Virus record (IMG/VR): IMGVR_UViG_2617270964_000006
Span: 1 to 19,599 of that record
Reading direction: 5' to 3' (one strand)
DNA length: 19,599 bases
Source of the DNA: a virus
Taxonomy: Duplodnaviria > Heunggongvirae > Uroviricota > Caudoviricetes
Below are positions 1 to 19,599 of this stretch, piece by piece; the stretch's first letter is position 1, and the number at the start of each line of letters is the position of its first letter. Below the pieces are notes generated by a model, which searched no databases, had not been told where the DNA came from, and was given only the letters and a program-made list of their open reading frames with translations. A program made the position numbers and the translations under genes.

Positions 1-1667
1 CTGTAATTCCCGAACTCGCCCAACTTTGTGTTTCCGGCTTTCTTGTGATGCATCAGATTCAGTTTGCCGCCTGTGGTCTGGGTGAAGAACGACATCAGGA
101 ACGGGTTACCAGTCCCGGTCATCACCACGACGTCAGGTAACGCTACATCGGTATACAGATAAATTCCCAGACCGAACTGGTTGTTGGTCAGTGCGCCTGA
201 CAGTCGAAACTTACAGCTCAGTCTGCCACCCCGTGTCAGCAGGGAGACTGCGTCATCCACCGGATGCATCAGGGACCAGGTTTTATTGCTCTGCTTGGTA
301 ACCTTAAACACACCATCTTCCAGCGCAACACTGCCGCCGGTGATGGTCCAGCCCTGCGCAGCAGCCTCTCCGGCTGTCGGCAGCAGGGAGACTGTACGAA
401 CGGATGTGTCACCATCAGACGGCCCCGATGGAGTGTCGCCGCCGGGCGAGGGTTTGATTTCCGGTGCCTTACCACTGATGAAGGCTGAGGTGCGCCCGGC
501 TGCGTTCAGAATAGCGGTTGCCATACGATCCGGAATAATGCTCCTGCGCGCCCATGAACTGAAATGTGTCGGGCGGTTTGATGATACCCAATTGCCATTA
601 CTACGGGATTGCGCGCCGTAATAACCTGCATCAGCAATATCCGGGTCTTCTGCCGGTAAGTTGGTGGGCGTGTTGTTGCCGTTACCGTCGGTCATGAACG
701 GCACAAAGAAAACGTTGTCGCTCTCCCTGTTTTTGTACGCGCCATAGACGGAGTCATACTGTGTGCCGTATGTGTTTTTCCAGTAATACGTCGTGTCGCC
801 ACAAATCCACGGTACAACTGCAGCACTGCCGCCATGGCACTGCGCGTTAAATCCGGAAAGGTCAGTACGGAACTGCTTCAGCATGGCCGTGAACAGGTCC
901 GGTTGCTGTGCGTAGGTGGCAGCGCTCATGTCAAATTCGCCCTGCATCCAGCACACCGCCAGCAACACATTTTTCGGGTTCTTCTGTAATGCCGCTTTGG
1001 TGCGTGCGATCAGGTCCTGATATAACGGTTTACCCACACCCCAGCGTGCCGAATCCTGGCTGGCCCCCGTGTCCGCACTGAATGTCCCCTCCGCGCCCTG
1101 GGTGAATGCCGAACCACCACGACAGCATGGTACCAGCAGGATCCCCGCGTTATTCGGGATATACGGAAGCAGTTTTTTGGCAATATGTAAGCCCTGGCCG
1201 ACACAGCCGTACTGCCCTTTGCTCAGGTCTGCCTTCGGATGATTCAGTGCGCTCATATCCTGAACATCATGCAGGCAGTGGTCTGCCGGAATGATGTCGT
1301 TAAATGCGCATGCTTTACCACCGGGAGTCACTGTGTTGCGACGGGCCAGTTGCTTAATGCGTGGGTGGGGCGCATCGTAAGAATCCGGCAGCGGCATTCC
1401 CTCACCATATGACATGGCATTGGATTGACCAGCAAGTACCACCACGTAATACCACTCCGGCACGCTGCCGTGCTGGGGGGAATCAGGTGAGATGTCTGTA
1501 GTGCCATCGGCCACCATTGCCTGCATTAGATACCACGGGGTGCCGGGTTCGTAGGCAACCCGCGTCTCCCCCTGAAGATGCCACCCTTTCGCAAGATGTT
1601 CATTCACCTTTTGAGTCAGTTCAGCCTGTGTCATGGCTGTAATCAGTGCAAAGTTCTTACTGGTCAT
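1..1667 (-). CDS. NanS-p-like sialate O-acetylesterase (DUF1737-like N-terminus + SGNH/SASA esterase domain); 3' end runs off the window
   Basis: Minus-strand frame open from ATG at 1667..1665 to position ~1 by manual translation (about 555 codons; not in the ORF track because it is truncated). N-terminus MTSKNFALITAMTQAELTQKVNEHLAKGWHLQGE; esterase block VVVLAGQSNAMSYGEG resembling the GQSNMxG serine motif. SD GGGAG 8 nt upstream; ATG overlaps the o-spanin stop (ATGA). Confidence 0.65.
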   Translation of the reverse strand, partial: MTSKNFALITAMTQAELTQKVNEHLAKGWHLQGETRVAYEPGTPWYLMQAMVADGTTDISPDSPQHGSVPEWYYVVVLAGQSNAMSYGEGMPLPDSYDAPHPRIKQLARRNTVTPGGKACAFNDIIPADHCLHDVQDMSALNHPKADLSKGQYGCVGQGLHIAKKLLPYIPNNAGILLVPCCRGGSAFTQGAEGTFSADTGASQDSARWGVGKPLYQDLIARTKAALQKNPKNVLLAVCWMQGEFDMSAATYAQQPDLFTAMLKQFRTDLSGFNAQCHGGSAAVVPWICGDTTYYWKNTYGTQYDSVYGAYKNRESDNVFFVPFMTDGNGNNTPTNLPAEDPDIADAGYYGAQSRSNGNWVSSNRPTHFSSWARRSIIPDRMATAILNAAGRTSAFISGKAPEIKPSPGGDTPSGPSDGDTSVRTVSLLPTAGEAAAQGWTITGGSVALEDGVFKVTKQSNKTWSLMHPVDDAVSLLTRGGRLSCKFRLSGALTNNQFGLGIYLYTDVALPDVVVMTGTGNPFLMSFFTQTTGGKLNLMHHKKAGNTKLGEFGNY

Positions 1668-1945
1668 TGTGTTACTCCCGTCTGGTGTGTCAGTTCGGCT
1701 ATTCTCTTATCCAGTTCAGCAATGGCCCGTTTATCCGCGTTACAGGTTTCCAGTGCATCCAGAAGGCGGTCGCCCCATATTCCGAGGTTTCCCCATGTGG
1801 GTGGGTCAGGGAAGGGGGGAGGCGTTACCGGCATGGTCAGCGTCTGCGGTATAAGCCGGACTGACGGCGCTGGCCCTGGCGCGTTCTGCGTGCCTGCGCA
1901 ACCTGTCAGTAAAACGAGCGTCAGGCAAAGCGTGGGCGCATTCAT
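1664..1945 (-). CDS. o-spanin (Rz1-like outer-membrane lipoprotein)
   Basis: ATG at 1945 gives MNAPTLCLTLVLLTGCAG with lipobox LLTGC, followed by a proline-rich stretch (PVTPPPFPDPP). Starts inside the i-spanin gene in another frame and extends past its stop. The track start at 1975 is a GTG. Confidence 0.65.
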   Translation of the reverse strand: MNAPTLCLTLVLLTGCAGTQNAPGPAPSVRLIPQTLTMPVTPPPFPDPPTWGNLGIWGDRLLDALETCNADKRAIAELDKRIAELTHQTGVTQ

Positions 1946-2201
1946 CTTTTGCAATATCGTTGCGTAGCTGTTCACGTCTTACCTCTCCGTCCTGATTGCG
2001 TTGCTGATTTTCCGCGCGGAGCTGAGCCAGCACCTGCTGCATATCCTGTACCCCGGCGCTGATGATATTCAGTGTGTCGACGGTACTTTTCAGGGTGCTG
2101 GCCTGCGCTTCGTTTCTGGCGTTCTCCCGGCCCAGCGACCACGACAGACGCATGGATGTAATCAGAAGGAAAGCGACGCCAAGCGTGGGCCAGAGCTTCA
2201 T
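1806..2201 (-). CDS. i-spanin (Rz-like, N-terminal membrane anchor)
   Basis: ATG at 2201 (MKLWPTLGVAFLLITSM...) preceded by GGAG; overlaps the endolysin stop as ATGA. N-terminal hydrophobic anchor then charged/Q-rich helical region. The track's upstream extension to 2345 would overlap the endolysin. Confidence 0.6.
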   Translation of the reverse strand: MKLWPTLGVAFLLITSMRLSWSLGRENARNEAQASTLKSTVDTLNIISAGVQDMQQVLAQLRAENQQRNQDGEVRREQLRNDIAKDECAHALPDARFTDRLRRHAERARASAVSPAYTADADHAGNASPLP

Positions 2202-2590
2202 GCCGGATAGGCTCCGTGTGGTAACTGAAAATGCGGTCCGTCTTTCAGGGTCTTCCAGTCGCCGCCCCATTCCACCGGAATATTCAGTTCCTGGCTGGCC
2301 TGTCTGAATGCTGCTGCGATTTTTTCGTACAGCGGCCATTCCCATGACACCTGGTTGCCGACATAAGCCACAACATCCACGGCATGCCCTGTGAGATGGC
2401 GACTGTTCATGGTCTGGCTCTTGCCTGTGGTCACGAGCTGCTTCTGACGATAACGACTGCGCAATCCTTCGGTGATACCAAAATCCACTTCCGAGATTTC
2501 CAGCGCCCGTCGGGTCACTTTCACCAGATCAGGATTTACACCCTGCAAATTCTTTTCGCTCCGGCTGCTGAATTTAAATGTGTTGCTCAT
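2198..2590 (-). CDS. endolysin, peptidase M15-type (L-alanyl-D-glutamate endopeptidase-like)
   Basis: 130 aa; zinc-ligand pattern SRHLTGHAVDV ... DGPHFQLPHG typical of small M15/VanY-like phage endolysins. ATG overlaps the holin stop (ATGA). Confidence 0.8.
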   Translation of the reverse strand: MSNTFKFSSRSEKNLQGVNPDLVKVTRRALEISEVDFGITEGLRSRYRQKQLVTTGKSQTMNSRHLTGHAVDVVAYVGNQVSWEWPLYEKIAAAFRQASQELNIPVEWGGDWKTLKDGPHFQLPHGAYPA

Positions 2591-2910
2591 TCGTTCCTCT
2601 CCTTCACCCTGCGATCAAATATTGCAATAACCTTGTCGCGTGCTTTCTCTGCGCCCATAAAACCGATTGAGGCACCAAAAAACGTCACTGCATCCTCAGG
2701 GATCCCGAAGAAGCGCAGCGACCCGGCCACGGCCATGGCAAGAACGCCGCACGCCAGCGATCCCGTTACGGTCTGAACCAGTGTTCGTCCGTCATAAAGA
2801 CTCATCAGCGCGGAAATGCTGACCGCCGCGCCTACTGCATACACCGTTGGCAGGTGGTCAAAGAGCCACGCAATAACCTGCTCTGTGATCCCTGTTTGAA
2901 TGGTGCTCAC
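2587..2910 (-). CDS. holin (three predicted TM segments)
   Basis: Hydrophobic segments VIAWLFDHLPTVYAVGAAVSISALMSLY, LVQTVTGSLACGVLAMAVAGSL, AVTFFGASIGFMGA. Likely GTG start at 2910 preceded by GGGGGAG; the track start at 2925 is also GTG with no SD. Sits directly upstream of the endolysin. Confidence 0.6.
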   Translation of the reverse strand: MSTIQTGITEQVIAWLFDHLPTVYAVGAAVSISALMSLYDGRTLVQTVTGSLACGVLAMAVAGSLRFFGIPEDAVTFFGASIGFMGAEKARDKVIAIFDRRVKERNE

Positions 2911-2912
2911 TG

Positions 2913-3113
2913 CTACTCCCCCCACAACTGAATCATTTCTCGTTTCTTCTTCTCCGGCTCCGGCATCTCCACTTCCTGCCCGGTGTCCAGAAATACCTGC
3001 TGACAGAGTCCGGGGTTGGCATCCAGCACCTTTTCGGTGACGCCCTGTGTCGTGCCGTAGTACCGGAAACAGAGCGAATCCACGGTGTCACCTTCCAGTG
3101 CCTTCACTTTCAT
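2913..3113 (-). CDS. X: P2 gpX-like tail protein
   Basis: ATG at 3113 gives MKVKALEGDTVDSLCFRYYGTTQGVTEKVLDANPGL, recalled as close to the P2 gpX N-terminus. Track start at 3119 is GTG. Confidence 0.8.
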   Translation of the reverse strand: MKVKALEGDTVDSLCFRYYGTTQGVTEKVLDANPGLCQQVFLDTGQEVEMPEPEKKKREMIQLWGE

Positions 3114-3607
3114 CAGCACAGCTCCGCAAACATTCGCGGTCGTCCCAGAATGTCAGAGATGGCCCAGCTCACATCGCGCCACAAATCCGATGTCTGTATA
3201 TCCAGTGCGTCCGCCCGGCGGTCGCCCTTGTCCGTTGTGTCCGCATCGCGGTAACGCTCCAGAATCAGGGCGCGTGTGGCGGTATAAACAGCATTGCGCC
3301 AGTGCCAGAGATTGACGCTTTCTCCGTTAATTACAGGGGCCGGAACATCGGCCAGCGTCTGATAGCCAGCCGCCTGTTGTTCCTGCTGCCATGCTTCCAG
3401 CTCGCGGGTAACGTGTGCTATGGCCCCGGTGGCGGTATGCAGCAGGCGGGAGGTGGTCACGCGGCCCGGCAGTCGTACCGCCAGACGCAGCTCGCGCAGC
3501 ACAATATCCGGCCAGAATGCACCCGCTGAAATACGGGTATCGCCATCATCGGTGTCGGTGATGTCGTCCTCTGCGGGGCCGGGGTTAGTTCTGGCAACCA
3601 TACTCAT
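3113..3607 (-). CDS. L: P2 gpL-like head completion/stabilisation protein
   Basis: About 164 aa in the conserved position between M and X; first ATG at 3607 preceded by AGGAG. Family assigned from synteny and size. Confidence 0.7.
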   Translation of the reverse strand: MSMVARTNPGPAEDDITDTDDGDTRISAGAFWPDIVLRELRLAVRLPGRVTTSRLLHTATGAIAHVTRELEAWQQEQQAAGYQTLADVPAPVINGESVNLWHWRNAVYTATRALILERYRDADTTDKGDRRADALDIQTSDLWRDVSWAISDILGRPRMFAELC

Positions 3608-10565: not shown

Positions 10566-11084
10566 TCATTCGAAACTGGCAAGAATCTGTTCTCGAACAG
10601 AAGATTTCATCGTTAACCCACGATCTAGGAAAAATTGGAAATGCATTAAGGCTTGTTGTTTGTGGATAAGTCTCCTGTGCACAGCCTCTTGAAGTAGCCC
10701 TCCGTGGCGGGCGGCTTTTACACCGCGTTCCGCACACGTTTTATAAACCGCATTATCCGCCGAAAGACATGTTGCATCATGTATTCTCGCGTTAACAACG
10801 CAGCTTATGTCCGCATACTTCAATGCTCTCCTGCGATTTTTTATCTCAGCCATTTCAATAAAATGTTCAGGTTCGTAATCATTGGTGAAATTGTATGGAA
10901 GTTGCAGGCGTGTAAGCTGTTCCTGAACATCAAGATTGTATTTAGCTTTTAGTTCCTCGCAGACATAGGGGTCAATCCACACACCACCCGGGTAAATTTG
11001 CCAGATAAGATCTAAGCATTTACCTTCGTAAAAATCAGACAGTACATTCGTATCGATAACACATCTGGGGCATTCAAACGGCAT
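10566..11084 (-). CDS. PIN-like nuclease domain protein (candidate toxin/effector)
   Basis: ATG at 11084 with AGGAGG RBS, overlapping the upstream gene's end by 11 nt. MPFECPRCVIDTNVLSDFYEG... has the PIN strand-1 motif (V-I-D-T-N-V-L) and further acidic residues (CEEL, YADIS, IHDAT). About 172 aa. Confidence 0.6.
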   Translation of the reverse strand: MPFECPRCVIDTNVLSDFYEGKCLDLIWQIYPGGVWIDPYVCEELKAKYNLDVQEQLTRLQLPYNFTNDYEPEHFIEMAEIKNRRRALKYADISCVVNARIHDATCLSADNAVYKTCAERGVKAARHGGLLQEAVHRRLIHKQQALMHFQFFLDRGLTMKSSVREQILASFE

Positions 11085-12219
11085 CCTCTCCGGCCTCCTG
11101 TTCGTCGTACCATTCATCCAGAAGATTGCTGAGAGCTTTTCTGTCTAATTCTAAAAGTTCAGATATGAAGGTTTCCGACGCGGAACCGGCTTCCCATGCT
11201 TTACGCGATAAGACGGTTAGGCGGCCTTTATAATTTAGTGCTTCCCTAATGGGATTTGGCTCGTGTCTCTTCCAACCTTTACGATTGGCGGTTGCCCATA
11301 GGTATCTAGTGTTTTGTTGATTAATTAAATTACATTTACTAAGACGATCGATGATGCAAGTGGCTGATACTCTGAAAATGCTTTTTAGTCTAAGGACGGT
11401 TTCCTCATACGCCCATCCACCACCTTGCATGACGAATTGTTTTCGCAATGCGCTTTCTGGTACCAAAAAACAAGCAGCAAAGTGATTAGCAACTTTTTCT
11501 TCCGGTGAAATTGCTTTGCCATTGGTTTTATAGCTTTTAGCAGGGCCATCATACTCATCACGGTGGAAGATAAGATGAGCATATTCATGGCAAATACTGA
11601 AGATTTGACGTTCTATTGAAATGCTATCGTGAACATTTACATAAATCGCGGTACCGTATTTGTTCGAAAACGCAGAAAATCCGAATACCATCCCTTTATC
11701 AGTTTCTTCGCGATTGAACGGGATTACTCGAATATCCGATGCTTCCAAAATGGCTACAATGTCACCAACGCAAGTAGCGTTTCCTATACCAAGACGGAAA
11801 CGTTCTTCCATAGCCTTATCTTCGACTCTTCGCAAATCTTCTGCTTTGGCGGTAAAAATAGGCATTGAGTTAGGAAGATCTTCTGGCAAATTAGCATCTG
11901 CAGCTTCCTCAATTGCATTGATATTTTTTAACTTTTCAATCAACTCATTGCGAAGTTTGGCATCCAACAAATCCGGACTATCTGCTCGCATTGCAAAACG
12001 AAACTCGCCATCATCTTGCTCATAAAAATACCCGATAGGCTTATCGAAAATCTTGCAGAGCATGATGAGTTGGGTAACGCTTGGGACGCCTAGCGCCTGC
12101 TCAAACTTACTGTAGGTTTGACGAACAACACCGATCGCATCTGCGACGGCGCTTGCACTCATTCCTGCGTCGTTTCTGGCCTGAACCAAGCGTTCTGCTA
12201 TACGCTGTTGAATGTTCAT
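11074..12219 (-). CDS. XRE-family HTH fused to ImmA/IrrE-type (M78, COG2856) zinc metallopeptidase
   Basis: 381 aa; N-terminal HTH (RIAERLVQARNDAGMSASAVADAIGVVRQTYSKFEQ); HEXXH zinc site in SICHEYAHLIFH; AGGTGA RBS; AT-rich coding sequence. Confidence 0.85.
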   Translation of the reverse strand: MNIQQRIAERLVQARNDAGMSASAVADAIGVVRQTYSKFEQALGVPSVTQLIMLCKIFDKPIGYFYEQDDGEFRFAMRADSPDLLDAKLRNELIEKLKNINAIEEAADANLPEDLPNSMPIFTAKAEDLRRVEDKAMEERFRLGIGNATCVGDIVAILEASDIRVIPFNREETDKGMVFGFSAFSNKYGTAIYVNVHDSISIERQIFSICHEYAHLIFHRDEYDGPAKSYKTNGKAISPEEKVANHFAACFLVPESALRKQFVMQGGGWAYEETVLRLKSIFRVSATCIIDRLSKCNLINQQNTRYLWATANRKGWKRHEPNPIREALNYKGRLTVLSRKAWEAGSASETFISELLELDRKALSNLLDEWYDEQEAGEDAV

Positions 12220-12583: not shown

Positions 12584-12693
12584 TTTACGGGATTCTGAAA
12601 TCCCGTTTTCGCCTGTTTTGCGCGCGCTTCATATATCGCGGCGCGTTTTTTGCTCATTTACGGGATTTGTGAATCCCGTTTCTGTCTGTTTTT
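12584..12693. repeat. duplicated ~37-bp hairpin elements at the 3' end of gene A
   Basis: Copy 1 12584-12619 TTTACGGGATTCTGAAATCCCGTTTTCGCCTGTTTT; copy 2 12657-12693 TTTACGGGATTTGTGAATCCCGTTTCTGTCTGTTTTT (overlaps the last A codons); between them a GC-clamped AT-core hairpin followed by TTTTTT. Confidence 0.5.
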
Positions 12694-15450
12694 GTTTCCA
12701 CTGGTCAGGACACCCCGCAGCAGGTCTGCTTTGCGGCGGGCGCGTTCAGTGGTTTCACTGATTCTCTGTGCGTGCTCTGCGTCACGGATGGCGCGCAGCA
12801 TGTCAGAAAGCACGGTAACGGGAGTTTTCATGGTGTTCTGGTCCTGCTGAATTGTGGATGCCAGGCGTGCAGCGGCTTCAGGGTCTGATGCCCCGAGCTG
12901 TTTCAGATAGCTGGAAATCGGGTTATGGCGGATTTCCGTGCTGTTTACGCCGTGATTACGGCTCAGGCGCTGCCAGAGCTGCGTGATTCGGCTGTCCGGT
13001 CGGGTATCTGGTTTGCGTACAATTTCAAATCCCTGCGGTGCAATGATGCTGCCGTCAACGTACAGACTGCCGCCTCGTAACAGGTGCTGCATCTGCTGTT
13101 CACCGATATGCAGGCCGAGAGATTCGGCAGATTCCCGCCATTCTTTAGCGAGTAATTCGTGGTTATCAGGCAAAGGCCGCTGATGTTTGCGGCTCTGTGT
13201 CCAGCTCTGCATTTCATCGCTGCTGTTTTTTGTCTGTTTGTCACGAAGCGAACGCATCAGCGCCCGGCGTTCGTGTCGTTTCAGTGAGCGCATCCATTCG
13301 TTCACTTCAACGCCGTCAGGGAGCTGCGGCCACGGTGCTGGCCGTTCTTCCGGCTGTTCTGTCCCGTTGTTGTCCGTTTCCTGTACACGGGGACAGTTAT
13401 TGCCACGAGTCCAAGGGGCGGCAGGGCCGCCCTGAAGGTCAAAACCATTTTCGCGGGAGCTATCTTCCGCTTCCGGTTTGCGTCTTACCAGCTTCCAGTT
13501 ATCCGGATGCGTGCATACGCGGGAAGACTCCCCGATGAGCGGCGACCAGATCCCGTAAATCTGTACACTCTGCTCACCGTAATCGTTCAGTTCATCTGCG
13601 AGGTCGTAGGCGGTGCGAATCAGGTAGTCTTTGCGTGGAACAAGCACGCCACCCTGTTTTTCAATGTAGGTGGCAAAACACCCGGCATCAGCGGCAGCGA
13701 GTACCGCATCCATTGCGTCATCCTTCAGCCGTTGCGGGCCTTCCGGGTTGCGTGCCATCTGGCTGGCAAGGCGGCGCAGTTCACGCCACACCTGACGGGA
13801 GGGGATACCAAAGAACTGGAACTGGCGGATTCGGTGAAGGCGCGCCCAGCCGATGGCGCGTTCCACGCTCTCGGCCATTGATTTTCCGGTTTCGTGGTCA
13901 ACGCGTGGCTTGCCCGTTTTCGGGTCGATGCCATCCACGGCGCGGCTGTCCAGGTTCTTTCCGATGTAGGTGGCGATGTAGCTGGTTGGCGTGCCTTTTG
14001 AGCCGTCGACGTACTCCGCCTTAAAACGCGGAGTTATGTCATCGCCCAGCTCGTGGCGGTCTTCCTGAATGGCAATATCGCAGACGTGGGACACGATGGT
14101 TTCAATCTCGTCCGGATGTGCAAAGACCATCATATGCCAGTGCACAGTGCCGTCATGGTGAGGCTCCACCGTGCGGATGCCATACCAGCGCAGACCGTCG
14201 CGGTTCAGTTTTTTGCGGACCGCCGCAAAAAACGTGTTAACCAGATAATCGCTGGAGTCGCGCATGGTGGCCCCGTTCCATTTGGGGTTCGGATGACCGT
14301 TCTCTGTTGTAGCGTGGTATTTTGACGGGCAGGTGACAGTCAGAAACACCGCTCTGTCGCCACGGGCTTCGGCCAGAAGTTCCAGCCCCTTCATGGTGGC
14401 CATCATTTCTGCCTTACGGTGAACCGGGTTACTTACTCCCGCGTAATACACTGTCTCGAGATCAATCGTGAACCCGTCTTCGTTTTCCAGCATGAAACTT
14501 TTCAGGAAATCGCGTGTTTTCTCGCGCTGTGCGCGAAACTCGCTTAACGCGTCCTGGCTCAGATAGGGCGATGTTTTTCTGGAAACCAGACAGGCGGCGC
14601 GGAGTTGTTCTTCTCTCCACTCGCAACGTAACAGCCACAGTTTGCGTTTCCACCATTCCGCACAGGTCAGGCGAAGGATTGCGCCCGGCAGCAGTTCTGT
14701 GTCCGGTTCGTTCCTCCGGTCTTTGTCTGTTGTCAGTGCGTCATAATGCGGAGGCATGGCGTGCAAGTGTAACGCCATGCGGGCCAGCATCTGATACGCC
14801 TTCAGCGTTACATCCATGGTCAGCTCGCCATCAGTCGCGCCAAAACCATCGCAGAGTTTTTCGAAGGTGCTGCTGAACATCGCCGCCGTCATGGTGGCCA
14901 GCGTCTGTATCTGGTGTTTGTTGAGTTGCGGCAGGGAAAGCAAATCGTCCAGGCGTTCACGTCCGGCAAGGGACCGATAACCCGGTGTCAGCCAACGGCT
15001 GTCGGTGCGGTCCAGACGTACGAATATTTTGCGCAGGGTTCCGCGTGCATAGCGTTCCGCCTGCCAGCTCTTTTTGCCTTTCCGGCGATCGGCTTCCTGT
15101 TTTTTGCGCAGGAAGGAGAGGTGGCGAATAAGCGGATCGCGCAGATAGGACGGCAGCAGGCGCAGCGAGGCCATGGCTTCATCCACCGCGCCACGTGCCT
15201 GTTTTCTGGCTTCTCTGGCCAGTGTGATGGTTTTGTCCTGTTTTTCCTGTGCGTCCAGGCTTTTATTAATCAGGTTGCCCAGCGGCGTGGCGGAGAACGC
15301 CGCATCAGCCATTTCCTGGCGGCGCTCGTTCTCTGCCCGGTAGGCATCCAGCCAGGAGGAAAGCTCGGATTCAGGAGCGGGGATTCCCGTTCCTTCACGA
15401 CCCACTGCGTGGCGCGGTTGTTGCCAGTCCCTGATGTACTCTGCCGTCAT
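12658..15450 (-). CDS. A: P2 gpA-like rolling-circle replication initiator (HUH endonuclease)
   Basis: 930 aa; HUH motif in VEPHHDGTVHWHMMVF; convergent with Q across the cargo locus, as in P2. Longer than the ~760 aa I recall for P2 A, implying an extra C-terminal region. Confidence 0.9.
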   Translation of the reverse strand: MTAEYIRDWQQPRHAVGREGTGIPAPESELSSWLDAYRAENERRQEMADAAFSATPLGNLINKSLDAQEKQDKTITLAREARKQARGAVDEAMASLRLLPSYLRDPLIRHLSFLRKKQEADRRKGKKSWQAERYARGTLRKIFVRLDRTDSRWLTPGYRSLAGRERLDDLLSLPQLNKHQIQTLATMTAAMFSSTFEKLCDGFGATDGELTMDVTLKAYQMLARMALHLHAMPPHYDALTTDKDRRNEPDTELLPGAILRLTCAEWWKRKLWLLRCEWREEQLRAACLVSRKTSPYLSQDALSEFRAQREKTRDFLKSFMLENEDGFTIDLETVYYAGVSNPVHRKAEMMATMKGLELLAEARGDRAVFLTVTCPSKYHATTENGHPNPKWNGATMRDSSDYLVNTFFAAVRKKLNRDGLRWYGIRTVEPHHDGTVHWHMMVFAHPDEIETIVSHVCDIAIQEDRHELGDDITPRFKAEYVDGSKGTPTSYIATYIGKNLDSRAVDGIDPKTGKPRVDHETGKSMAESVERAIGWARLHRIRQFQFFGIPSRQVWRELRRLASQMARNPEGPQRLKDDAMDAVLAAADAGCFATYIEKQGGVLVPRKDYLIRTAYDLADELNDYGEQSVQIYGIWSPLIGESSRVCTHPDNWKLVRRKPEAEDSSRENGFDLQGGPAAPWTRGNNCPRVQETDNNGTEQPEERPAPWPQLPDGVEVNEWMRSLKRHERRALMRSLRDKQTKNSSDEMQSWTQSRKHQRPLPDNHELLAKEWRESAESLGLHIGEQQMQHLLRGGSLYVDGSIIAPQGFEIVRKPDTRPDSRITQLWQRLSRNHGVNSTEIRHNPISSYLKQLGASDPEAAARLASTIQQDQNTMKTPVTVLSDMLRAIRDAEHAQRISETTERARRKADLLRGVLTSGNKNRQKRDSQIP

Positions 15451-15456
15451 AGTGAT

Positions 15457-15822
15457 TTACTTCGTCATGCCATTCAGGGTGTCGCGGCAGACTGTAGCCA
15501 GCCGCTGAATTTCCAGCACGGTGTCTTCTGTGTCGGCATGGCGATGTGTGATGCGGATGCTGTCGGCAATCACATCGACGATTGCAGAGGATGGGCGCTG
15601 GTAAATGCCAATAACGGACGGGGTGCCACCTTCAATGCGGTAAAGCCTGTAATTTTCCTCATGGCTGTCAATCATGTAGCGACCATCAATAACAATCTTT
15701 CCGTCAGCGAGCTGCGGTACAGGCAGGGATTTCAGGTACATGTCATAACGATCACGCACGCGAGCGGCAAGATCACGTTCTGTGTTGAGCAGGTATTCAA
15801 GAAAGTCGTTGGCGAGAATCAT
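15457..15822 (-). CDS. hypothetical early-operon protein (121 aa)
   Basis: ATG with AGAGGA RBS; ends 6 nt before the A start. Confidence 0.55.
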   Translation of the reverse strand: MILANDFLEYLLNTERDLAARVRDRYDMYLKSLPVPQLADGKIVIDGRYMIDSHEENYRLYRIEGGTPSVIGIYQRPSSAIVDVIADSIRITHRHADTEDTVLEIQRLATVCRDTLNGMTK

Positions 15823-15894
15823 TGCGGCAATCCTCTTGCTACAGATGTGCGAAGGCCTCCCGCCGCAAGGTGCAGGAAAGGCCTGGAACAGGAA

Positions 15895-16125
15895 TTAATG
15901 GAGTTTGTTTTGCTGCTGGATGAGCTGCTGAAGCTCGCGCAGATCATCCGCCAGATAGCTGAAAACAGAGGCGGAATAAATGTTTGATAGTGCGTGGCTG
16001 CGCTCATGCAGCATATTGATGTGCATGATTTGCGCGACGCGTGATGCGCGGAAAAGTCTGCGGTTGATTTCAGTCTGGATGTGACGACGCTCCGCGATAG
16101 CGCGGTGCTGTTTGCGGTTTGCCAT
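15895..16125 (-). CDS. hypothetical early-operon protein (76 aa, basic N-terminus)
   Basis: ATG with AGAGAGG RBS; MANRKQHRAIAERRHIQTEINRR...; no recognisable motif. Confidence 0.5.
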   Translation of the reverse strand: MANRKQHRAIAERRHIQTEINRRLFRASRVAQIMHINMLHERSHALSNIYSASVFSYLADDLRELQQLIQQQNKLH

Positions 16126-16302
16126 GATGTGGCCTCTCTGTTAGTTAGTTTTGAAAACTCACCATCCAGAGGTTCCAAGCTCGGGGTGGTGAGACGTACA
16201 GGGTTGGAACTACCGGCTAACAGAGGACCCGGCCCAGCTGATGCTGGCCCTGTACGCCCCACCATAATTCTGACGCGAAAAAGACGTGGCGATACGGCAC
16301 GC

Positions 16303-16325
16303 ACAAAAAAACCGCTGGCGCGGTT
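16303..16325 (-). terminator. intrinsic terminator-like hairpin
   Basis: AACCGC-TGGC-GCGGTT (16310-16325); on the minus strand followed by TTTTTTT (16309-16303). Confidence 0.45.
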
Positions 16326-16443
16326 GTGCGCTCTGTTAGTCTGCGGGGTTCCAATCCCGGCACCCGTTTTATGAGGTGCAGCGGAAATGTAACCTGACTG
16401 ATTGCGGCATGGCAAGCGGTTTTTTTGTGAGAACGGCATACTA

Positions 16444-16486
16444 AAAAATCCTGATACTGCTCCGGCCAGCGGTTTTCACTGGCCGG
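16444..16486 (-). terminator. hairpin downstream of the SPFH gene stop
   Basis: CCGGCCAG (16462-16469) / CTGGCCGG (16479-16486) with 9-nt loop; T-run (16449-16444) 12 nt further on the minus strand. Confidence 0.4.
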
Positions 16487-16492
16487 GTTTAA

Positions 16493-17323
16493 TTACTTCA
16501 CCGGAACAAACGGAACAGCGGTGTTACTGGTCATGTATTGCGGTAGCGTGCCGTTCCATTTGTTAATCGCTTCCAGCTCCATAACGCCGGGATTCTGGCG
16601 CAGAGCTTCACCGCGTAAACGAATGGCGTCGGCTTCAGCCTGGGCTTTTGTGCGAATGGCATCGGCTTGTCCGGCAGCTTCTGCGCGCAGCATGTTGGCT
16701 TCAGCTTCGCGTTGCTTGACTTCCTGTTCACGTTGCAGGGTTTTCTGGTTTGCCGTGACTTTGGCATTAATGCTGTCGATAACGGTTGGCGGGTATTCCG
16801 GCTTACCCACATAAGAGAGGCTCATTACCTGAATGCCGATAGGTGTCATTTCTGCCTGAATGTCTTTAAGTGCTGAATCCAGCAGTTCAGACTTGCCACC
16901 GTCGATAAATTTATCGGTGGTCATTTTGCTGGCCAGTCGGTTGAGTGCGTCGGCGATCTTCTGGCGCAGGTCAGTGTCGGTAATGTCATCCACGCCTTTG
17001 CGGTAGGTCTGAAACACTATAGTAACTTTGGATGGATCAACCTTGTAGGCCACACCGATGTGATAGCCGATGGTTGTGCCGTCACTCATCTGAAAGCTGA
17101 ACGGCTCATTGTAGGTCTTCATTTGTTTGAAGGTCGGGAAGATGTAAACCTCGGTATTCCAGCCAGTCCAGTAGCGGCCAACGCCAACCACTTCGCCAAC
17201 GCCTTTGTCGTCGCCCAGCTTGTTGACTTTGATGCCCACATTACCTGGCTCAACGCGATCGCAGCCAACCAGCAGGATGGCGGCAAAAAGCGGGAGAATC
17301 TGAAAGAGTTTGAATTTCTTCAT
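16493..17323 (-). CDS. SPFH/band-7 (prohibitin/stomatin-like) lipoprotein
   Basis: 276 aa; signal peptide with lipobox LLVGCD; C-terminal A/E/R-rich coiled coil (QREQEVKQREAEANMLRAEAAGQADAIRTKAQAEADAIRLRGEAL); AAGGAAA RBS; start overlaps the upstream gene's stop (ATGA). Confidence 0.8.
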   Translation of the reverse strand: MKKFKLFQILPLFAAILLVGCDRVEPGNVGIKVNKLGDDKGVGEVVGVGRYWTGWNTEVYIFPTFKQMKTYNEPFSFQMSDGTTIGYHIGVAYKVDPSKVTIVFQTYRKGVDDITDTDLRQKIADALNRLASKMTTDKFIDGGKSELLDSALKDIQAEMTPIGIQVMSLSYVGKPEYPPTVIDSINAKVTANQKTLQREQEVKQREAEANMLRAEAAGQADAIRTKAQAEADAIRLRGEALRQNPGVMELEAINKWNGTLPQYMTSNTAVPFVPVK

Positions 17324-17523
17324 TGTTTAATTTCCTTGATGTACTTACTGAAAAGGCGAACAACGCCTGCCGGGTACAGCATGGCAATGAAAATGCCCAG
17401 CAATACCAGGAAAGAGCTGTCTGATGAAATCATTCGGGGGAGTACCCCTACATACAGAATGAGAGAGACGAGGACGCATACCAGCGCCCATGCATATGCA
17501 CGAAACCATGTCTTGTTGTTCAT
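17320..17523 (-). CDS. small membrane protein (67 aa, two predicted TM helices), partner of the SPFH gene
   Basis: ATG at 17523; WFRAYAWALVCVLVSLILYVGVL and FLVLLGIFIAMLYPAGVV hydrophobic segments; translationally coupled to the SPFH gene. The track's longer N-terminus is basic, low-complexity. Confidence 0.55.
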   Translation of the reverse strand: MNNKTWFRAYAWALVCVLVSLILYVGVLPRMISSDSSFLVLLGIFIAMLYPAGVVRLFSKYIKEIKQ

Positions 17524-17533
17524 GTTGCGGCCC

Positions 17534-17746
17534 TTACTGGTTAAGGAAAAAATCGAAAACCTTGTCAATGCGTTGCAGCAGCTCTTGCTGTATTGCTTCC
17601 GGCGTTTCCGGTTCGCCTGGCGCCTCCAACGTCGCGCAGAAATCAGCGATTTCATGATGGAGTGTCAGGCGAATGGCAGGGGCCGTGGTTCTGGCGTGCT
17701 CCAACTCATCCAGCAGTGCCAACACCACTGACGGTTGTAAGCTCAC
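17534..17746 (-). CDS. hypothetical acidic protein (70 aa)
   Basis: ORF-track call; GTG start with no clear SD; ends 11 nt before the small membrane protein gene. Confidence 0.3.
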   Translation of the reverse strand: MSLQPSVVLALLDELEHARTTAPAIRLTLHHEIADFCATLEAPGEPETPEAIQQELLQRIDKVFDFFLNQ

Positions 17747-19032: not shown

Positions 19033-19265
19033 TTAATCTGCTTTCTGGATTTCAGCTTCTGAATCCATGCAAATAATTTCGATATAGGGTTCATTGCCAT
19101 TAACCTGACGTGCCTTTTCAGCTTCGCTAATGATTTCGCGTACAGTCTGGTACGGAAGTTCTACGGTCAGGCGCGTGCCGTTCAGATAAACGTAAGTAGC
19201 TGCATTTTTTTCTGATGGGACGACGCCATCAGTAGCTGATGCGCGTAATAACAGTTCACCGCGAA
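19033..19265 (-). pseudogene. C-terminal 77 codons of an early-operon gene truncated at the IS1 boundary
   Basis: Open minus-strand frame running from the IS1 end at 19265/19266 to TAA at 19035..19033 (...LRGELLLRASATDGVVPSEKNAATYVYLNGTRLTVELPYQTVREIISEAEKARQVNGNEPYIEIICMDSEAEIQKAD); no start codon on this side of the IS. Confidence 0.5.
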
Positions 19266-19599
19266 GGTAATGACTCCAACTTATTGATAGTGTTTTATGT
19301 TCAGATAATGCCCGATGACTTTGTCATGCAGCTCCACCGATTTTGAGAACGACAGCGACTTCCGTCCCAGCCGTGCCAGGTGCTGCCTCAGATTCAGGTT
19401 ATGCCGCTCAATTCGCTGCGTATATCGCTTGCTGATTACGTGCAGCTTTCCCTTCAGGCGGGATTCATACAGCGGCCAGCCATCCGTCATCCATATCACC
19501 ACGTCAAAGGGTGACAGCAGGCTCATAAGACGCCCCAGCGTCGCCATAGTGCGTTCACCGAATACGTGCGCAACAACCGTCTTCCGGAGCCTGTCATAC
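19266..19599 (-). mobile_element. IS1 insertion sequence, partial (terminal inverted repeat at 19266; continues past the window end)
   Basis: Begins GGTAATGACTCCAACTTATTGATAGTGTTTTATGTTCAGATAATGCCCGATGAC, which I recognise as an IS1 end; followed by the insB coding sequence. Confidence 0.9.
19281..19599 (-). CDS. insB: IS1 transposase InsB (C-terminal part; 5' end beyond the window)
   Basis: Translation ...[88 protein letters not shown] matches IS1 InsB as I recall it. Confidence 0.85.

What the first reader, a model, noticed from the sequence alone, without database searches (positions are those of the whole stretch)
16493..17523. SPFH/band-7 lipoprotein plus small 2-TM protein embedded in the phage early operon
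A translationally coupled membrane pair sits between small early genes and is followed by terminator-like hairpins, looking like an inserted moron. SPFH proteins scaffold membrane microdomains and regulate FtsH-type proteases (HflK/C is the E. coli example), so a phage-borne copy in the lysogeny/early region could modulate host proteolysis, superinfection exclusion or membrane-targeted defence.
Basis: partly seen in the sequence, partly recalled or inferred. Interest (0 to 1): 0.6.

Follow-up and report, generated by a model that had tools for sequence, protein, structure and literature searches.

The report
Phage SPFH lipoprotein with membrane partner
A P88-like E. coli prophage carries an optional two-gene cassette, a small two-helix membrane protein plus a lipid-anchored SPFH scaffold protein, which also occurs in hundreds of other phages, including the virulent coliphage N4, and whose function is unknown.

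Summary
On the minus strand, a 67-aa 2-TM ORF (17523..17320) overlaps by ATGA a 276-aa SPFH/Band-7 lipoprotein (17323..16493; lipobox LVGC, Asp at +2).

The pair is a clean ~1.09-kb insertion/deletion difference (about 16430..17532). P88-like phages 569R5 and P884B11 lack it, and Shae_phiSM has different cargo in the same slot. About 145 E. coli genomes carry it, against about 874 with the flanking block. It is therefore accessory cargo, not a core gene.

It is not an autonomous moron. Only 10 nt lie upstream, no promoter was found, and its 3' hairpin lacks a U-tract. The other "terminator hairpins" are the isrK and C4 sRNA genes.

The same module occurs in lambdoid, P1-like and SSU5-like phages and in many virulent phages (N4 gp19/gp20, PVP-SE1). 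The two proteins are fused into one ORF in several metagenomic phages.

The model matches full-length cage-forming SPFH proteins (HflK/C, prohibitin, erlin, stomatin). It fails the HflK/HflC equivalog cut-offs, and the partner is not NfeD.

Most likely it builds a periplasm-facing inner-membrane cage with a transmembrane "fence" during lytic growth. What the phage gains (FtsH modulation, exclusion or lysis control) is unresolved.

The parts
17320..17523 (-). Partner gene: a 67-aa protein with two TM helices, predicted N-in/C-in by the positive-inside rule. It has a conserved periplasmic-loop motif, LP-x-[ML]-[IV]-S. Its stop overlaps the SPFH start (ATGA).
   Evidence: ORF. phrog_1130, E = 1.6e-20. 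No Pfam or NfeD hit. Alignable with the lambdoid, phiP27, Cyrano and N4 gp19 partners. Present in 77 of 79 close loci.
16493..17323 (-). SPFH/Band-7 lipoprotein precursor, 276 aa. It has a signal peptide with lipobox LVGC (Cys21, Asp22), SPFH1 and SPFH2 domains, one long coiled-coil helix (residues 179-243) and a C-terminal KWNGxLP tail.
   Evidence: Pfam Band_7, 5.4e-31. phrog_200, 1.9e-111. AF2 model with pLDDT 73.6. Foldseek full-length matches to erlin, prohibitin, HflK/C, stomatin, flotillin and QmcA at E = 1e-13 to 1e-8.
17524..17533 (-). 10-nt spacer between the stop of the upstream 70-aa early gene (17534..17746) and the partner's ATG. It holds a Shine-Dalgarno-like AAGGG that overlaps that stop codon. 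There is no room for a promoter.
   Evidence: Sequence reading. No promoter-like site on this strand upstream.
16462..16486 (-). 10-bp GC-rich hairpin in the cassette's 3' untranslated end, 6 nt after the SPFH stop. The U-run follows only 13 nt later, so it is probably an RNA 3'-stabiliser or a weak pause site rather than an efficient terminator.
   Evidence: RNA fold. Not called by the terminator scan.
16430..17532 (-). Limits of the whole cassette as an insertion/deletion relative to P88-like phages that lack it. There, an 18-nt spacer replaces it.
   Evidence: BLAST and junction alignment against L005, L006 and L007.

Best explanation
The pair is a horizontally mobile, accessory phage module.

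Components:
- One gene encodes a lipid-anchored SPFH protein that faces the periplasm from the inner membrane.
- The other encodes its dedicated 2-TM partner.
- Together they are the split form of a protein that in other phages is a single polypeptide: 2-TM domain, third TM helix, then SPFH.

Expression in this prophage:
- The module entered as a promoter-less cassette at the end of the early (Pe/cox) operon.
- It sits just upstream of the isrK/C4 immunity-RNA promoter.
- It should therefore be transcribed and translated with the early lytic genes, not from a lysogenic promoter.

Proposed mechanism (inferred):
- Like every structurally solved full-length SPFH protein, it oligomerises into a ring or cage on the membrane.
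- The partner's helices form the intramembrane 'fence' and dock through their conserved periplasmic loop.
- The cage walls off a patch of inner membrane during phage development.

What the phage gains is not resolved. My rough split is:
- control of inner-membrane integrity or lysis timing, about 0.25;
- capture or modulation of FtsH or another inner-membrane quality-control factor, about 0.2;
- a general barrier to superinfecting DNA or to membrane-acting defence effectors, about 0.25;
- something else, about 0.3.

Shown here: gene structure, family, fold, accessory status, partner linkage and fusions, and distribution. Inferred: localisation, oligomerisation, timing of expression and the cellular target.
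For: Gene pair and family.

Clean indel and alternative cargo in the same slot. Occupancy is about 145 versus about 874 E. coli genomes.

No promoter and a non-canonical hairpin.

The same module sits in unrelated phage backbones:
- lambdoid phiP27 and Stx2 phages, near int/xis or the cI side;
- P1-like RCS47, between tRNA genes;
- SSU5-like Cyrano;
- a Klebsiella prophage early-left operon;
- virulent phages: N4 gp19/gp20 and PVP-SE1.
- In all, 412 phage records match.

Partner linkage:
- 77 of 79 close loci and 14 of 21 distant loci, including one with the reversed gene order.
- A partner HMM hits the N-termini of 16 of the 150 listed 50%-identity cluster representatives at E = 6e-10 to 5e-3.
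- Fused ORFs were verified on DNA for three lineages. This fixes the partner's C-terminus in the cytoplasm and the SPFH domain in the periplasm.

Fold: full-length matches to cage-forming SPFH proteins.

Selection: strong purifying selection on SPFH, dN/dS 0.03-0.10. This fits a conserved target or assembly constraint rather than an arms race.

Literature: the role of phage SPFH proteins is described as unclear (PMC13239085; PMC8540360).
Against: - There is no experimental datum for any family member in the searchable literature.
- Oligomerisation and localisation are inferred only.
- Asp at +2 is the E. coli inner-membrane retention signal, but its strength depends on +3, which here is Arg. 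Outside enterobacterial phages, +2 is mostly Ser or Thr.
- A prophage HflK/C-like protein of Pasteurella multocida was reported in outer-membrane vesicles (PMC9872710). Its homology to this family was not tested.
- The partner is missing next to the SPFH gene in some lineages (DL54, M7, Magneto).
- In this particular window an IS1 copy interrupts the early operon upstream, starting at 19266. Expression here may therefore be altered.
- In some phages the pair lies in tRNA arrays that may be late-expressed, so 'early' timing is not universal.
Confidence: 0.55

Rival explanations
1. HflK/C mimic. The phage SPFH protein binds the periplasmic domain of FtsH, or co-assembles with HflK/C. It thereby changes FtsH proteolysis of phage or host membrane and regulatory proteins.
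For: - HflK is the best PDB match by sequence, though weakly (E = 7e-4).
- HflK/C structures are among the top fold matches.
- Its predicted periplasm-facing topology matches my recollection of HflK/C (not tested here).
- The strongly conserved mature domain would fit a conserved host target.
- Most characterised SPFH proteins regulate membrane proteases or channels (established knowledge).
Against: - It fails the HflK and HflC equivalog models (23-25 bits against cut-offs of 134-159).
- Fold similarity to erlin, prohibitin and stomatin is equal or better, so nothing points specifically to FtsH.
- There is one SPFH gene, not a K/C pair.
- It occurs in virulent phages and in P2-like phages, which have no CII/CIII-type FtsH-controlled switch.
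Confidence: 0.2
2. Superinfection-exclusion or anti-phage defence cargo. The inner-membrane pair blocks DNA entry of other phages, or acts as a membrane-based abortive system that protects the lysogen.
For: - It is accessory cargo in a variable slot.
- PHROGs files the partner under 'moron, auxiliary metabolic gene and host takeover'.
- The small 2-TM protein plus periplasmic membrane protein resembles T4 Imm/Sp and other exclusion pairs (my own knowledge).
Against: - PADLOC gives no hit for the SPFH protein and only a noise-level 20-residue match for the partner (E = 0.008).
- No own promoter was found, so expression in the repressed lysogen is unlikely.
- Nearly the same mature protein (76-93% identical) sits in P2-like, lambdoid, P1-like and SSU5-like phages, and at 61-80% in N4-like phages. 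Their entry routes differ, and dN/dS is low. That is unlike arms-race exclusion proteins.
Confidence: 0.17
3. Lysis-timing device. The 2-TM partner is a holin- or antiholin-like membrane protein, and the SPFH cage sequesters it or the phage holin to delay lysis.
For: - The partner has the size, topology and charged C-terminus of class II holins (sequence).
- The module is common in phages with large genomes or, as far as I recall for N4, long latent periods: N4, rV5-like, phiCbK-like and Lak phages.
Against: - There is no significant homology to any holin family. The best is Phage_holin_3_6 at E = 0.038 for N4 gp19, below threshold.
- A closely related prophage (E. coli MS8345, 99.8% identical across the cassette query) has a complete holin/endolysin/spanin cassette annotated elsewhere.
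- In natural fusions the partner is covalently tied 1:1 to SPFH. That fits an anchor better than a regulated client.
Confidence: 0.12
4. Lysogenic-conversion or virulence lipoprotein. The lipoprotein is exported in outer-membrane vesicles and acts on the animal host, as reported for the prophage-borne HflK/C-like PM0222 of Pasteurella multocida.
For: PMC9872710 reports an OMV-associated, TLR1/2-stimulating prophage SPFH protein whose deletion attenuates virulence.
Against: - Homology of PM0222 to this family was not tested.
- The family is abundant in virulent phages of environmental and plant-associated bacteria.
- The obligate membrane partner and the fused 3-TM forms tie it to the inner membrane.
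- No lysogenic promoter was found.
Confidence: 0.04

Closest known systems
E. coli HflK/HflC (FtsH-associated SPFH cage)
   Same: SPFH1-SPFH2, coiled-coil and C-terminal-tail architecture. HflK/C structures are among the top fold matches. By my recollection of HflK/C (not tested here) it is likewise anchored to the inner membrane with the SPFH body in the periplasm.
   Different: About 17-18% identity. It fails the TIGR01932 and TIGR01933 cut-offs. It has a lipid anchor instead of an N-terminal TM helix, a single SPFH gene instead of a K/C hetero-pair, and a dedicated 2-TM partner. An FtsH link is untested.
SPFH-NfeD operons (e.g. QmcA-YbbJ, PDB 8z5g; YqiJ-YqiK; FloT-NfeD2)
   Same: An SPFH gene translationally coupled to a small membrane-protein gene in one operon. 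QmcA is among the fold matches.
   Different: The partner has no NfeD/OB-fold domain. It is only 67 aa, with no PF01957 hit at E <= 1. The predicted orientation is periplasmic, whereas I recall QmcA as cytoplasmic (not tested here). It is phage-borne.
Coliphage N4 gp19/gp20 and phage P88 gp11/gp12 (PHROG families 1130 and 200)
   Same: The same two-gene module. P88 is 98.9% identical for the SPFH protein and 93% for the partner. N4 gp20 is 61% identical, and gp19 carries the partner motif.
   Different: None in kind. All are uncharacterised, and several GenBank records mislabel the SPFH gene 'serine protease' or 'transposase'. No protease domain is detectable.
Phage morons / P2 accessory cargo (old, tin, fun)
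   Same: Presence/absence polymorphism between otherwise syntenic relatives, and alternative cargo in the same slot.
   Different: No own promoter and no canonical terminator. It is embedded in and coupled to the early operon, and it also occurs in virulent phages.

Membership tests
SPFH / Band 7 superfamily (PF01145) | Band_7 domain above the Pfam gathering score | tested here: met
   108.4 bits against a cut-off of 23.6, E = 5.4e-31, residues 23-209.
SPFH / Band 7 superfamily (PF01145) | Full architecture of cage-forming members: SPFH1/2 alpha-beta domains, a long coiled-coil helix and a C-terminal tail | tested here: met
   AF2 model with mean pLDDT 73.6 and a helix at 179-243. Foldseek aligns 260-300 columns to erlin1/2, PHB1/2, HflK/C, stomatin and QmcA at E = 1e-13 to 1e-8.
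SPFH / Band 7 superfamily (PF01145) | Assembly into a membrane-attached ring or cage | not testable with these tools
   Only monomer prediction is available. This needs native PAGE or cryo-EM.
Bacterial lipoprotein (signal peptidase II substrate) | N-terminal signal peptide ending in lipobox [LVI][ASTVI][GAS]C | tested here: met
   MKKFK-LFQILPLFAAILLVG-C21. The Cys is kept in all close variants and is invariant even in the fused forms. Lipidation itself is not testable.
Bacterial lipoprotein (signal peptidase II substrate) | Inner-membrane retention signal (Asp at +2 in Enterobacteria) | tested here: inconclusive
   C-D-R is conserved in all enterobacterial variants. The effect of Arg at +3 is unknown, and other lineages have Ser, Thr or Gly at +2. 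The fused 3-TM forms independently argue for the inner membrane.
HflK / HflC (FtsH modulators) | Scores above the NCBIfam equivalog cut-offs (TIGR01933, TIGR01932) | tested here: not met
   23.3 and 24.8 bits against cut-offs of 159.4 and 134.4.
HflK / HflC (FtsH modulators) | Two paralogous SPFH subunits encoded together | tested here: not met
   There is one SPFH gene. The adjacent gene is a 67-aa 2-TM protein.
HflK / HflC (FtsH modulators) | Physical association with FtsH | not testable with these tools
   No interaction data and no complex prediction are available.
SPFH-NfeD operon | Partner carries the NfeD C-terminal OB-fold domain (PF01957) | tested here: not met
   No NfeD hit at E <= 1 for four partner variants. 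62-78 aa leaves no room for the domain.
SPFH-NfeD operon | Adjacent, co-oriented, translationally coupled membrane-protein gene | tested here: met
   ATGA overlap here. Overlap is conserved in 77 of 79 loci. Fusions exist in other lineages.
Moron (autonomous accessory transcription unit) | Present or absent between syntenic relatives | tested here: met
   Absent from 569R5 and P884B11 and replaced in Shae_phiSM. About 145 against about 874 E. coli genomes.
Moron (autonomous accessory transcription unit) | Own promoter and own terminator | tested here: not met
   A 10-nt upstream spacer, no promoter-like site, and a hairpin without an adjacent U-tract. Consensus scans cannot exclude a weak or non-sigma-70 promoter.
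Known anti-phage defence systems (PADLOC-DB v2) | Match to any defence-protein HMM | tested here: not met
   No hit for SPFH. For the partner, only a 20-residue match to PDC-M18B at E = 0.008.

The most novel reading that the evidence does not exclude
The 2-TM partner plus lipoprotein SPFH pair is a distinct, ancient, phage-specific membrane organelle. It would be a periplasm-facing cage with a transmembrane fence that phages from N4 to Lak megaphages use to wall off part of the host inner membrane. Its purpose could be to capture FtsH or another quality-control factor, or to shield the membrane from incoming phage DNA or pore-forming defence effectors. That would make it a new class of host-takeover or counter-defence machinery that is directly testable in N4 and P88.
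Probability: 0.2. Interest if true: 0.75.

Novelty: new variant of a known kind. Interest (0 to 1): 0.45.

Why it matters
SPFH scaffolds are universal but poorly understood, and no function is known for their phage-encoded versions. This analysis shows four things about the copy in this prophage:
- It belongs to a conserved two-component module, sometimes fused into one protein.
- The module matches 412 sequenced phage records, most of them virulent phages.
- It is under strong purifying selection.
- Model phage N4 carries it as gp19/gp20.

The question becomes experimentally tractable through knockouts in N4 or P88 and co-purification of the two proteins. It also removes the misleading 'serine protease' and lysogeny-control readings. 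If the cage targets FtsH or blocks membrane-acting defences, it would be a new principle of phage-host membrane warfare. If not, it is still a minimal, lipid-anchored SPFH cage with a defined partner, which would suit structural work.

Tried and rejected
- PADLOC scan for known defence systems: nothing meaningful.
- NCBIfam HflK/HflC equivalogs: far below cut-off.
- Pfam at E <= 1 for the partner (NfeD, holins): only noise from TM segments.
- Sequence search for partner homologues: only close relatives were returned. Remote partners had to be found with a home-made HMM.
- Literature searches (SPFH with prophage, anti-phage, superinfection exclusion, phage-encoded, N4-like; N4 gp19/gp20; CRISPRi-ART with N4): no functional study of the family.
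- A locus search with the alignment of fused forms failed because no stretch was conserved enough. The genome-collection scan with P0170 gave one irrelevant locus.
- Flanking direct repeats or a target-site duplication at the cassette ends: none found. The junctions look like recombinational module exchange.
- Rejected, 'serine protease' (GenBank labels in phiP27, Stx2 phages and RCS47): there is no protease domain.
- Rejected, a canonical terminator after the SPFH gene: not supported.
- Rejected, the 206-aa ORF 15819..16439 and the PGAP 'ash family protein' pseudogene as real genes: both overlie the isrK/C4 RNA genes.
Full report
**What is there**

The window is a P88-like (Xuanwuvirus, Peduoviridae) prophage of E. 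coli. The region of interest is 99.8% identical to the chromosome of strain MS8345 and 93% identical to phage P88.

Two ORFs occupy the reported interval on the minus strand.
- The first is 17523..17320. It encodes 67 aa with two hydrophobic helices, basic residues at both ends and a nine-residue loop.
- The second is 17323..16493 and encodes 276 aa.
- They overlap as ATGA, and an AAGGA Shine-Dalgarno-like motif lies inside the end of the first gene.

The large protein has these properties.
- It hits Pfam Band_7/SPFH with 108 bits against a cut-off of 23.6, and phrog_200 'lipoprotein'.
- Its N-terminus, MKKFKLFQILPLFAAILLVG-C-DR, is a lipobox with Asp at +2. By established knowledge that is the E. 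coli Lol-avoidance signal. The strength of that signal with Arg at +3 is not known to me.
- Pfam detected no domain other than Band_7, so the 'serine protease' label on homologues in GenBank is a legacy error.

The small protein belongs to phrog_1130. It has no Pfam family, and in particular no NfeD domain.

**Accessory cargo, but not an autonomous moron**

BLAST and junction alignment give exact limits for the cassette.
- Window 16430..17532 is missing from the P88-like phages vB_EcoM-569R5 and P884B11. There, 18 nt join the same flanks.
- In Citrobacter phage Shae_phiSM a 183-aa DNA-binding protein gene occupies the slot.
- The flanking block 15457-16429 is present at 80% coverage or more in 874 of 5,426 complete E. 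coli genomes. The cassette is present in 145.

So the pair is not a core early gene of the lineage.

The features expected of a self-contained moron are absent.
- Only 10 nt separate the stop of the preceding 70-aa early gene from the partner's ATG.
- The scan finds no sigma-70-like site on that strand between the pair and the end of phage homology.
- The cassette ends in a strong 10-bp hairpin (16462-16486), but its U-run lies 13 nt downstream, so it is not a canonical intrinsic terminator.
Rfam places isrK at 16305-16379 (72 bits) and the P1-type C4 antisense RNA at 16182-16269 (78 bits).
- A promoter-like site, TTGCCA-18-TACATT, lies at 16415..16386, immediately after the cassette.

Gene A (replication endonuclease, 12658..15450) lies further downstream on the same strand. 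A non-terminating cassette end is therefore what one would expect of an insertion the phage can tolerate. That is an inference.

**The module is far more widespread than this lineage**

The mature SPFH coding sequence recurs in several backbones.
- Lambdoid phiP27 and Stx2 phages, at about 91% nucleotide identity.
- The P1-like phage-plasmid RCS47, at 92% amino-acid identity.
- A Klebsiella prophage, at 82% amino-acid identity.
- SSU5-like phage-plasmids such as Cyrano, at about 75% nucleotide identity.

Each of the four I examined closely (phiP27, the IMG/VR contig L065, Cyrano and the Klebsiella prophage) has a small 2-TM ORF directly upstream. In phiP27 that ORF is unannotated.

Genomic positions differ between these phages.
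- Between the cI side and xis/int in Stx2 phages.
- Next to int/xis in phiP27.
- Inside tRNA clusters in RCS47 and in IMG/VR contig L065.

A tblastn search of 50,697 phage records finds 412 with a relative, and most are virulent phages. They include:
- coliphage N4 (gp20, 61% identity), N4-like Erwinia and Klebsiella phages, and PVP-SE1/GAP31-like myoviruses;
- Felix-O1-like Erwinia phages, Pseudomonas Bruynogheviruses, and Burkholderia BcepF1 and Maja;
- phiCbK-like Caulobacter phages and Lak megaphages.

In N4 the pair is gp19 (68 aa) and gp20. The two genes overlap by 8 nt, and the pair lies about 1.4 kb downstream of the RNAPII genes, after two intervening genes.

A library of 50%-identity clusters holds 2,846 relatives at E <= 1e-3 and 215 at E <= 1e-30.

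**The partner is a true partner**

- The window, lambdoid, phiP27, Cyrano and N4 partners are 20-45% identical. They align with an invariant Pro and Ile-Ser in the loop (motif LP-x-[ML]-[IV]-S) and Gly, Ala and Pro in helix 2.
- Seventy-seven of 79 close IMG/VR loci keep the overlapping 2-TM ORF.
- An HMM of five partners finds PVP-SE1 gene 116 (E = 3e-14, one gene away), the ORF upstream of the SPFH gene in Pseudomonas phage Ostro (5e-6) and, weakly, Maja gp114 (0.05).
- The same HMM finds nothing next to the DL54, M7 or Magneto genes.
- Among 21 distant metagenomic and viral loci the partner is detected in 14. In one it lies downstream with an ATGA overlap (L095).

The strongest evidence is a set of natural fusions.
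- Sixteen of the 150 cluster representatives are 330-390 aa and hit the partner HMM at their N-terminus, at E = 6e-10 to 5e-3. Their alignment (A3, 15 of them) shows the partner domain followed by a basic linker, a third hydrophobic helix that retains the invariant Cys, and the SPFH body.
- Three such fused ORFs were confirmed on their contigs: P0142 in three sequencing runs, P0170 in two, and P0154.
- Their neighbours look phage-like (PDDEXK exonuclease, HNH, RtcB, D5 primase).

This Rosetta-stone pattern argues for a physical complex. It also fixes the topology: partner N- and C-termini in the cytoplasm, SPFH domain in the periplasm, and the whole assembly on the inner membrane.

**Fold and evolution**

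An AlphaFold2 model from 44 sequences (mean pLDDT 73.6) shows the SPFH beta/alpha domains, one long helix (residues 179-243) and a poorly predicted tail.

Foldseek aligns it over its full length to every class of cage-forming SPFH protein: erlin1/2, prohibitin, HflK/C, stomatin, flotillin, QmcA-YbbJ and the vault shoulder. E-values are 1e-13 to 1e-8 and identity is 14-18%. No class is preferred.

By sequence the best solved relative is HflK at E = 7e-4. The HflK and HflC equivalog models score 23-25 bits against cut-offs of 134-159.

Selection and mosaicism:
- The SPFH gene is under strong purifying selection (dN/dS 0.03-0.10).
- The partner evolves faster (0.15-0.28 where not saturated).
- Between the P88 and phiP27 types, the mature SPFH is about 91% identical in DNA, while the partner and signal peptide are exchanged for a distant homologue.
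- The recombination joint lies at the conserved GCDRVEPGN junction.

**Interpretation**

Shown here:
- a mobile, accessory, two-component phage module;
- an SPFH fold of the cage-forming type;
- a lipobox;
- a cognate 2-TM partner that is sometimes fused;
- presence in virulent phages;
- insertion here without an own promoter.

Inferred:
- The lipoprotein oligomerises on the periplasmic face of the inner membrane.
- The partner provides the transmembrane fence and docks through its conserved loop.
- The complex is made with the early lytic genes and isolates a membrane patch.

Because virulent phages carry it, a role confined to lysogeny or to the lysis-lysogeny decision is unlikely. Because nearly the same mature protein serves phages with different entry routes and shows no diversifying selection, a classical homotypic exclusion protein is also unlikely.

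I cannot discriminate between control of membrane integrity or lysis timing, capture of FtsH or another quality-control factor, and a general barrier against incoming DNA or pore-forming effectors. I give each about 0.2-0.25.

The accessible literature calls the role of phage SPFH proteins unclear (PMC13239085; PMC8540360). The only experimental report on a prophage SPFH protein is PM0222 of Pasteurella multocida, which is OMV-associated and a TLR1/2 agonist (PMC9872710). It concerns a protein whose relation to this family I did not test.

**A caveat for this window**

Homology to P88 and MS8345 stops at 19265. Positions 19281-19547 encode the C-terminal part of the IS1 transposase. IS1 therefore interrupts an early gene upstream of the pair, on the same strand. 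In this strain, expression of the distal early operon, including the pair, may be uncoupled from Pe.

**Verdict**

The 'inserted cargo' reading is right, while the 'moron with terminators' and FtsH or defence readings are unproven or weakened.

The element is already annotated in P88 and N4 and filed in PHROGs. What is new here is its characterisation as a conserved SPFH-plus-partner module of mostly virulent phages, with natural fusions. I rate it as a variant of the SPFH and SPFH-NfeD theme with unknown function, of moderate interest and readily testable.

Noticed in passing
window 16182-16429 (minus strand): isrK sRNA (16305-16379) and a P1-type C4 antisense RNA (16182-16269) sit in a P2-like prophage, just upstream of a 'derepression protein' gene (15895-16125, PF25738). 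They have their own promoter-like site at 16415..16386. The mechanical 206-aa ORF 15819..16439, and the RefSeq 'ash family protein' pseudogene in strain MS8345, overlie these RNA genes and are probably annotation artefacts.
   Followed up: partly
window 16302-16319 / 16412-16429, and 16465-16476: An 18-nt inverted repeat (94% complementary) pairs the region upstream of the isrK promoter with the 3' arm and U-tract of the isrK terminator. It could act as an antiterminator for transcripts that read through from the early operon. The cassette's own hairpin also contains a 12-nt perfect complement to the same terminator arm, with about 0.06 such matches expected by chance. Neither was tested.
   Followed up: no
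window 19266-19599: An IS1 copy interrupts the early operon. The transposase C-terminal part is at 19281-19547 (PF03400, E = 6e-48), on the same strand as the early genes. The insertion lies inside the homologue of P88 gp05. This prophage may be defective, or its distal early genes may be driven from IS1.
   Followed up: partly
L002 (phiP27) 3304-3492, minus strand: An unannotated 62-aa 2-TM ORF overlaps (ATGA) the start of phiP27 L05. It is the missing partner gene in the reference annotation. L05 and its Stx2-phage and RCS47 homologues are mislabelled 'serine protease'.
   Followed up: yes
L065 2783-5058; L122 (RCS47) 1202-3431: In one IMG/VR contig (L065) and in the P1-like phage RCS47 the pair is embedded in a tRNA gene cluster, with tRNA-Met immediately downstream. 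This suggests a different, possibly late, transcriptional context from the early-operon sites.
   Followed up: partly
L095 1294-2324; L116 2643-3641; L119 5001-6077; L121 5001-6149: Gene order and fusion state of the module vary. The partner is downstream of SPFH in L095. Single fused ORFs (2-TM, TM3 with the conserved Cys, then SPFH) occur in three metagenomic phage lineages. Whether the internal lipobox is still processed in the fusions is an open question.
   Followed up: partly
window 10566-12219 vs L004 12834-14112: In MS8345 the region upstream of gene A is annotated with ParM and a partition protein, and P88 likewise has ParM there. In the window that region differs, with 183-aa and 381-aa ORFs instead. 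This is another variable slot of this phage group.
   Followed up: no
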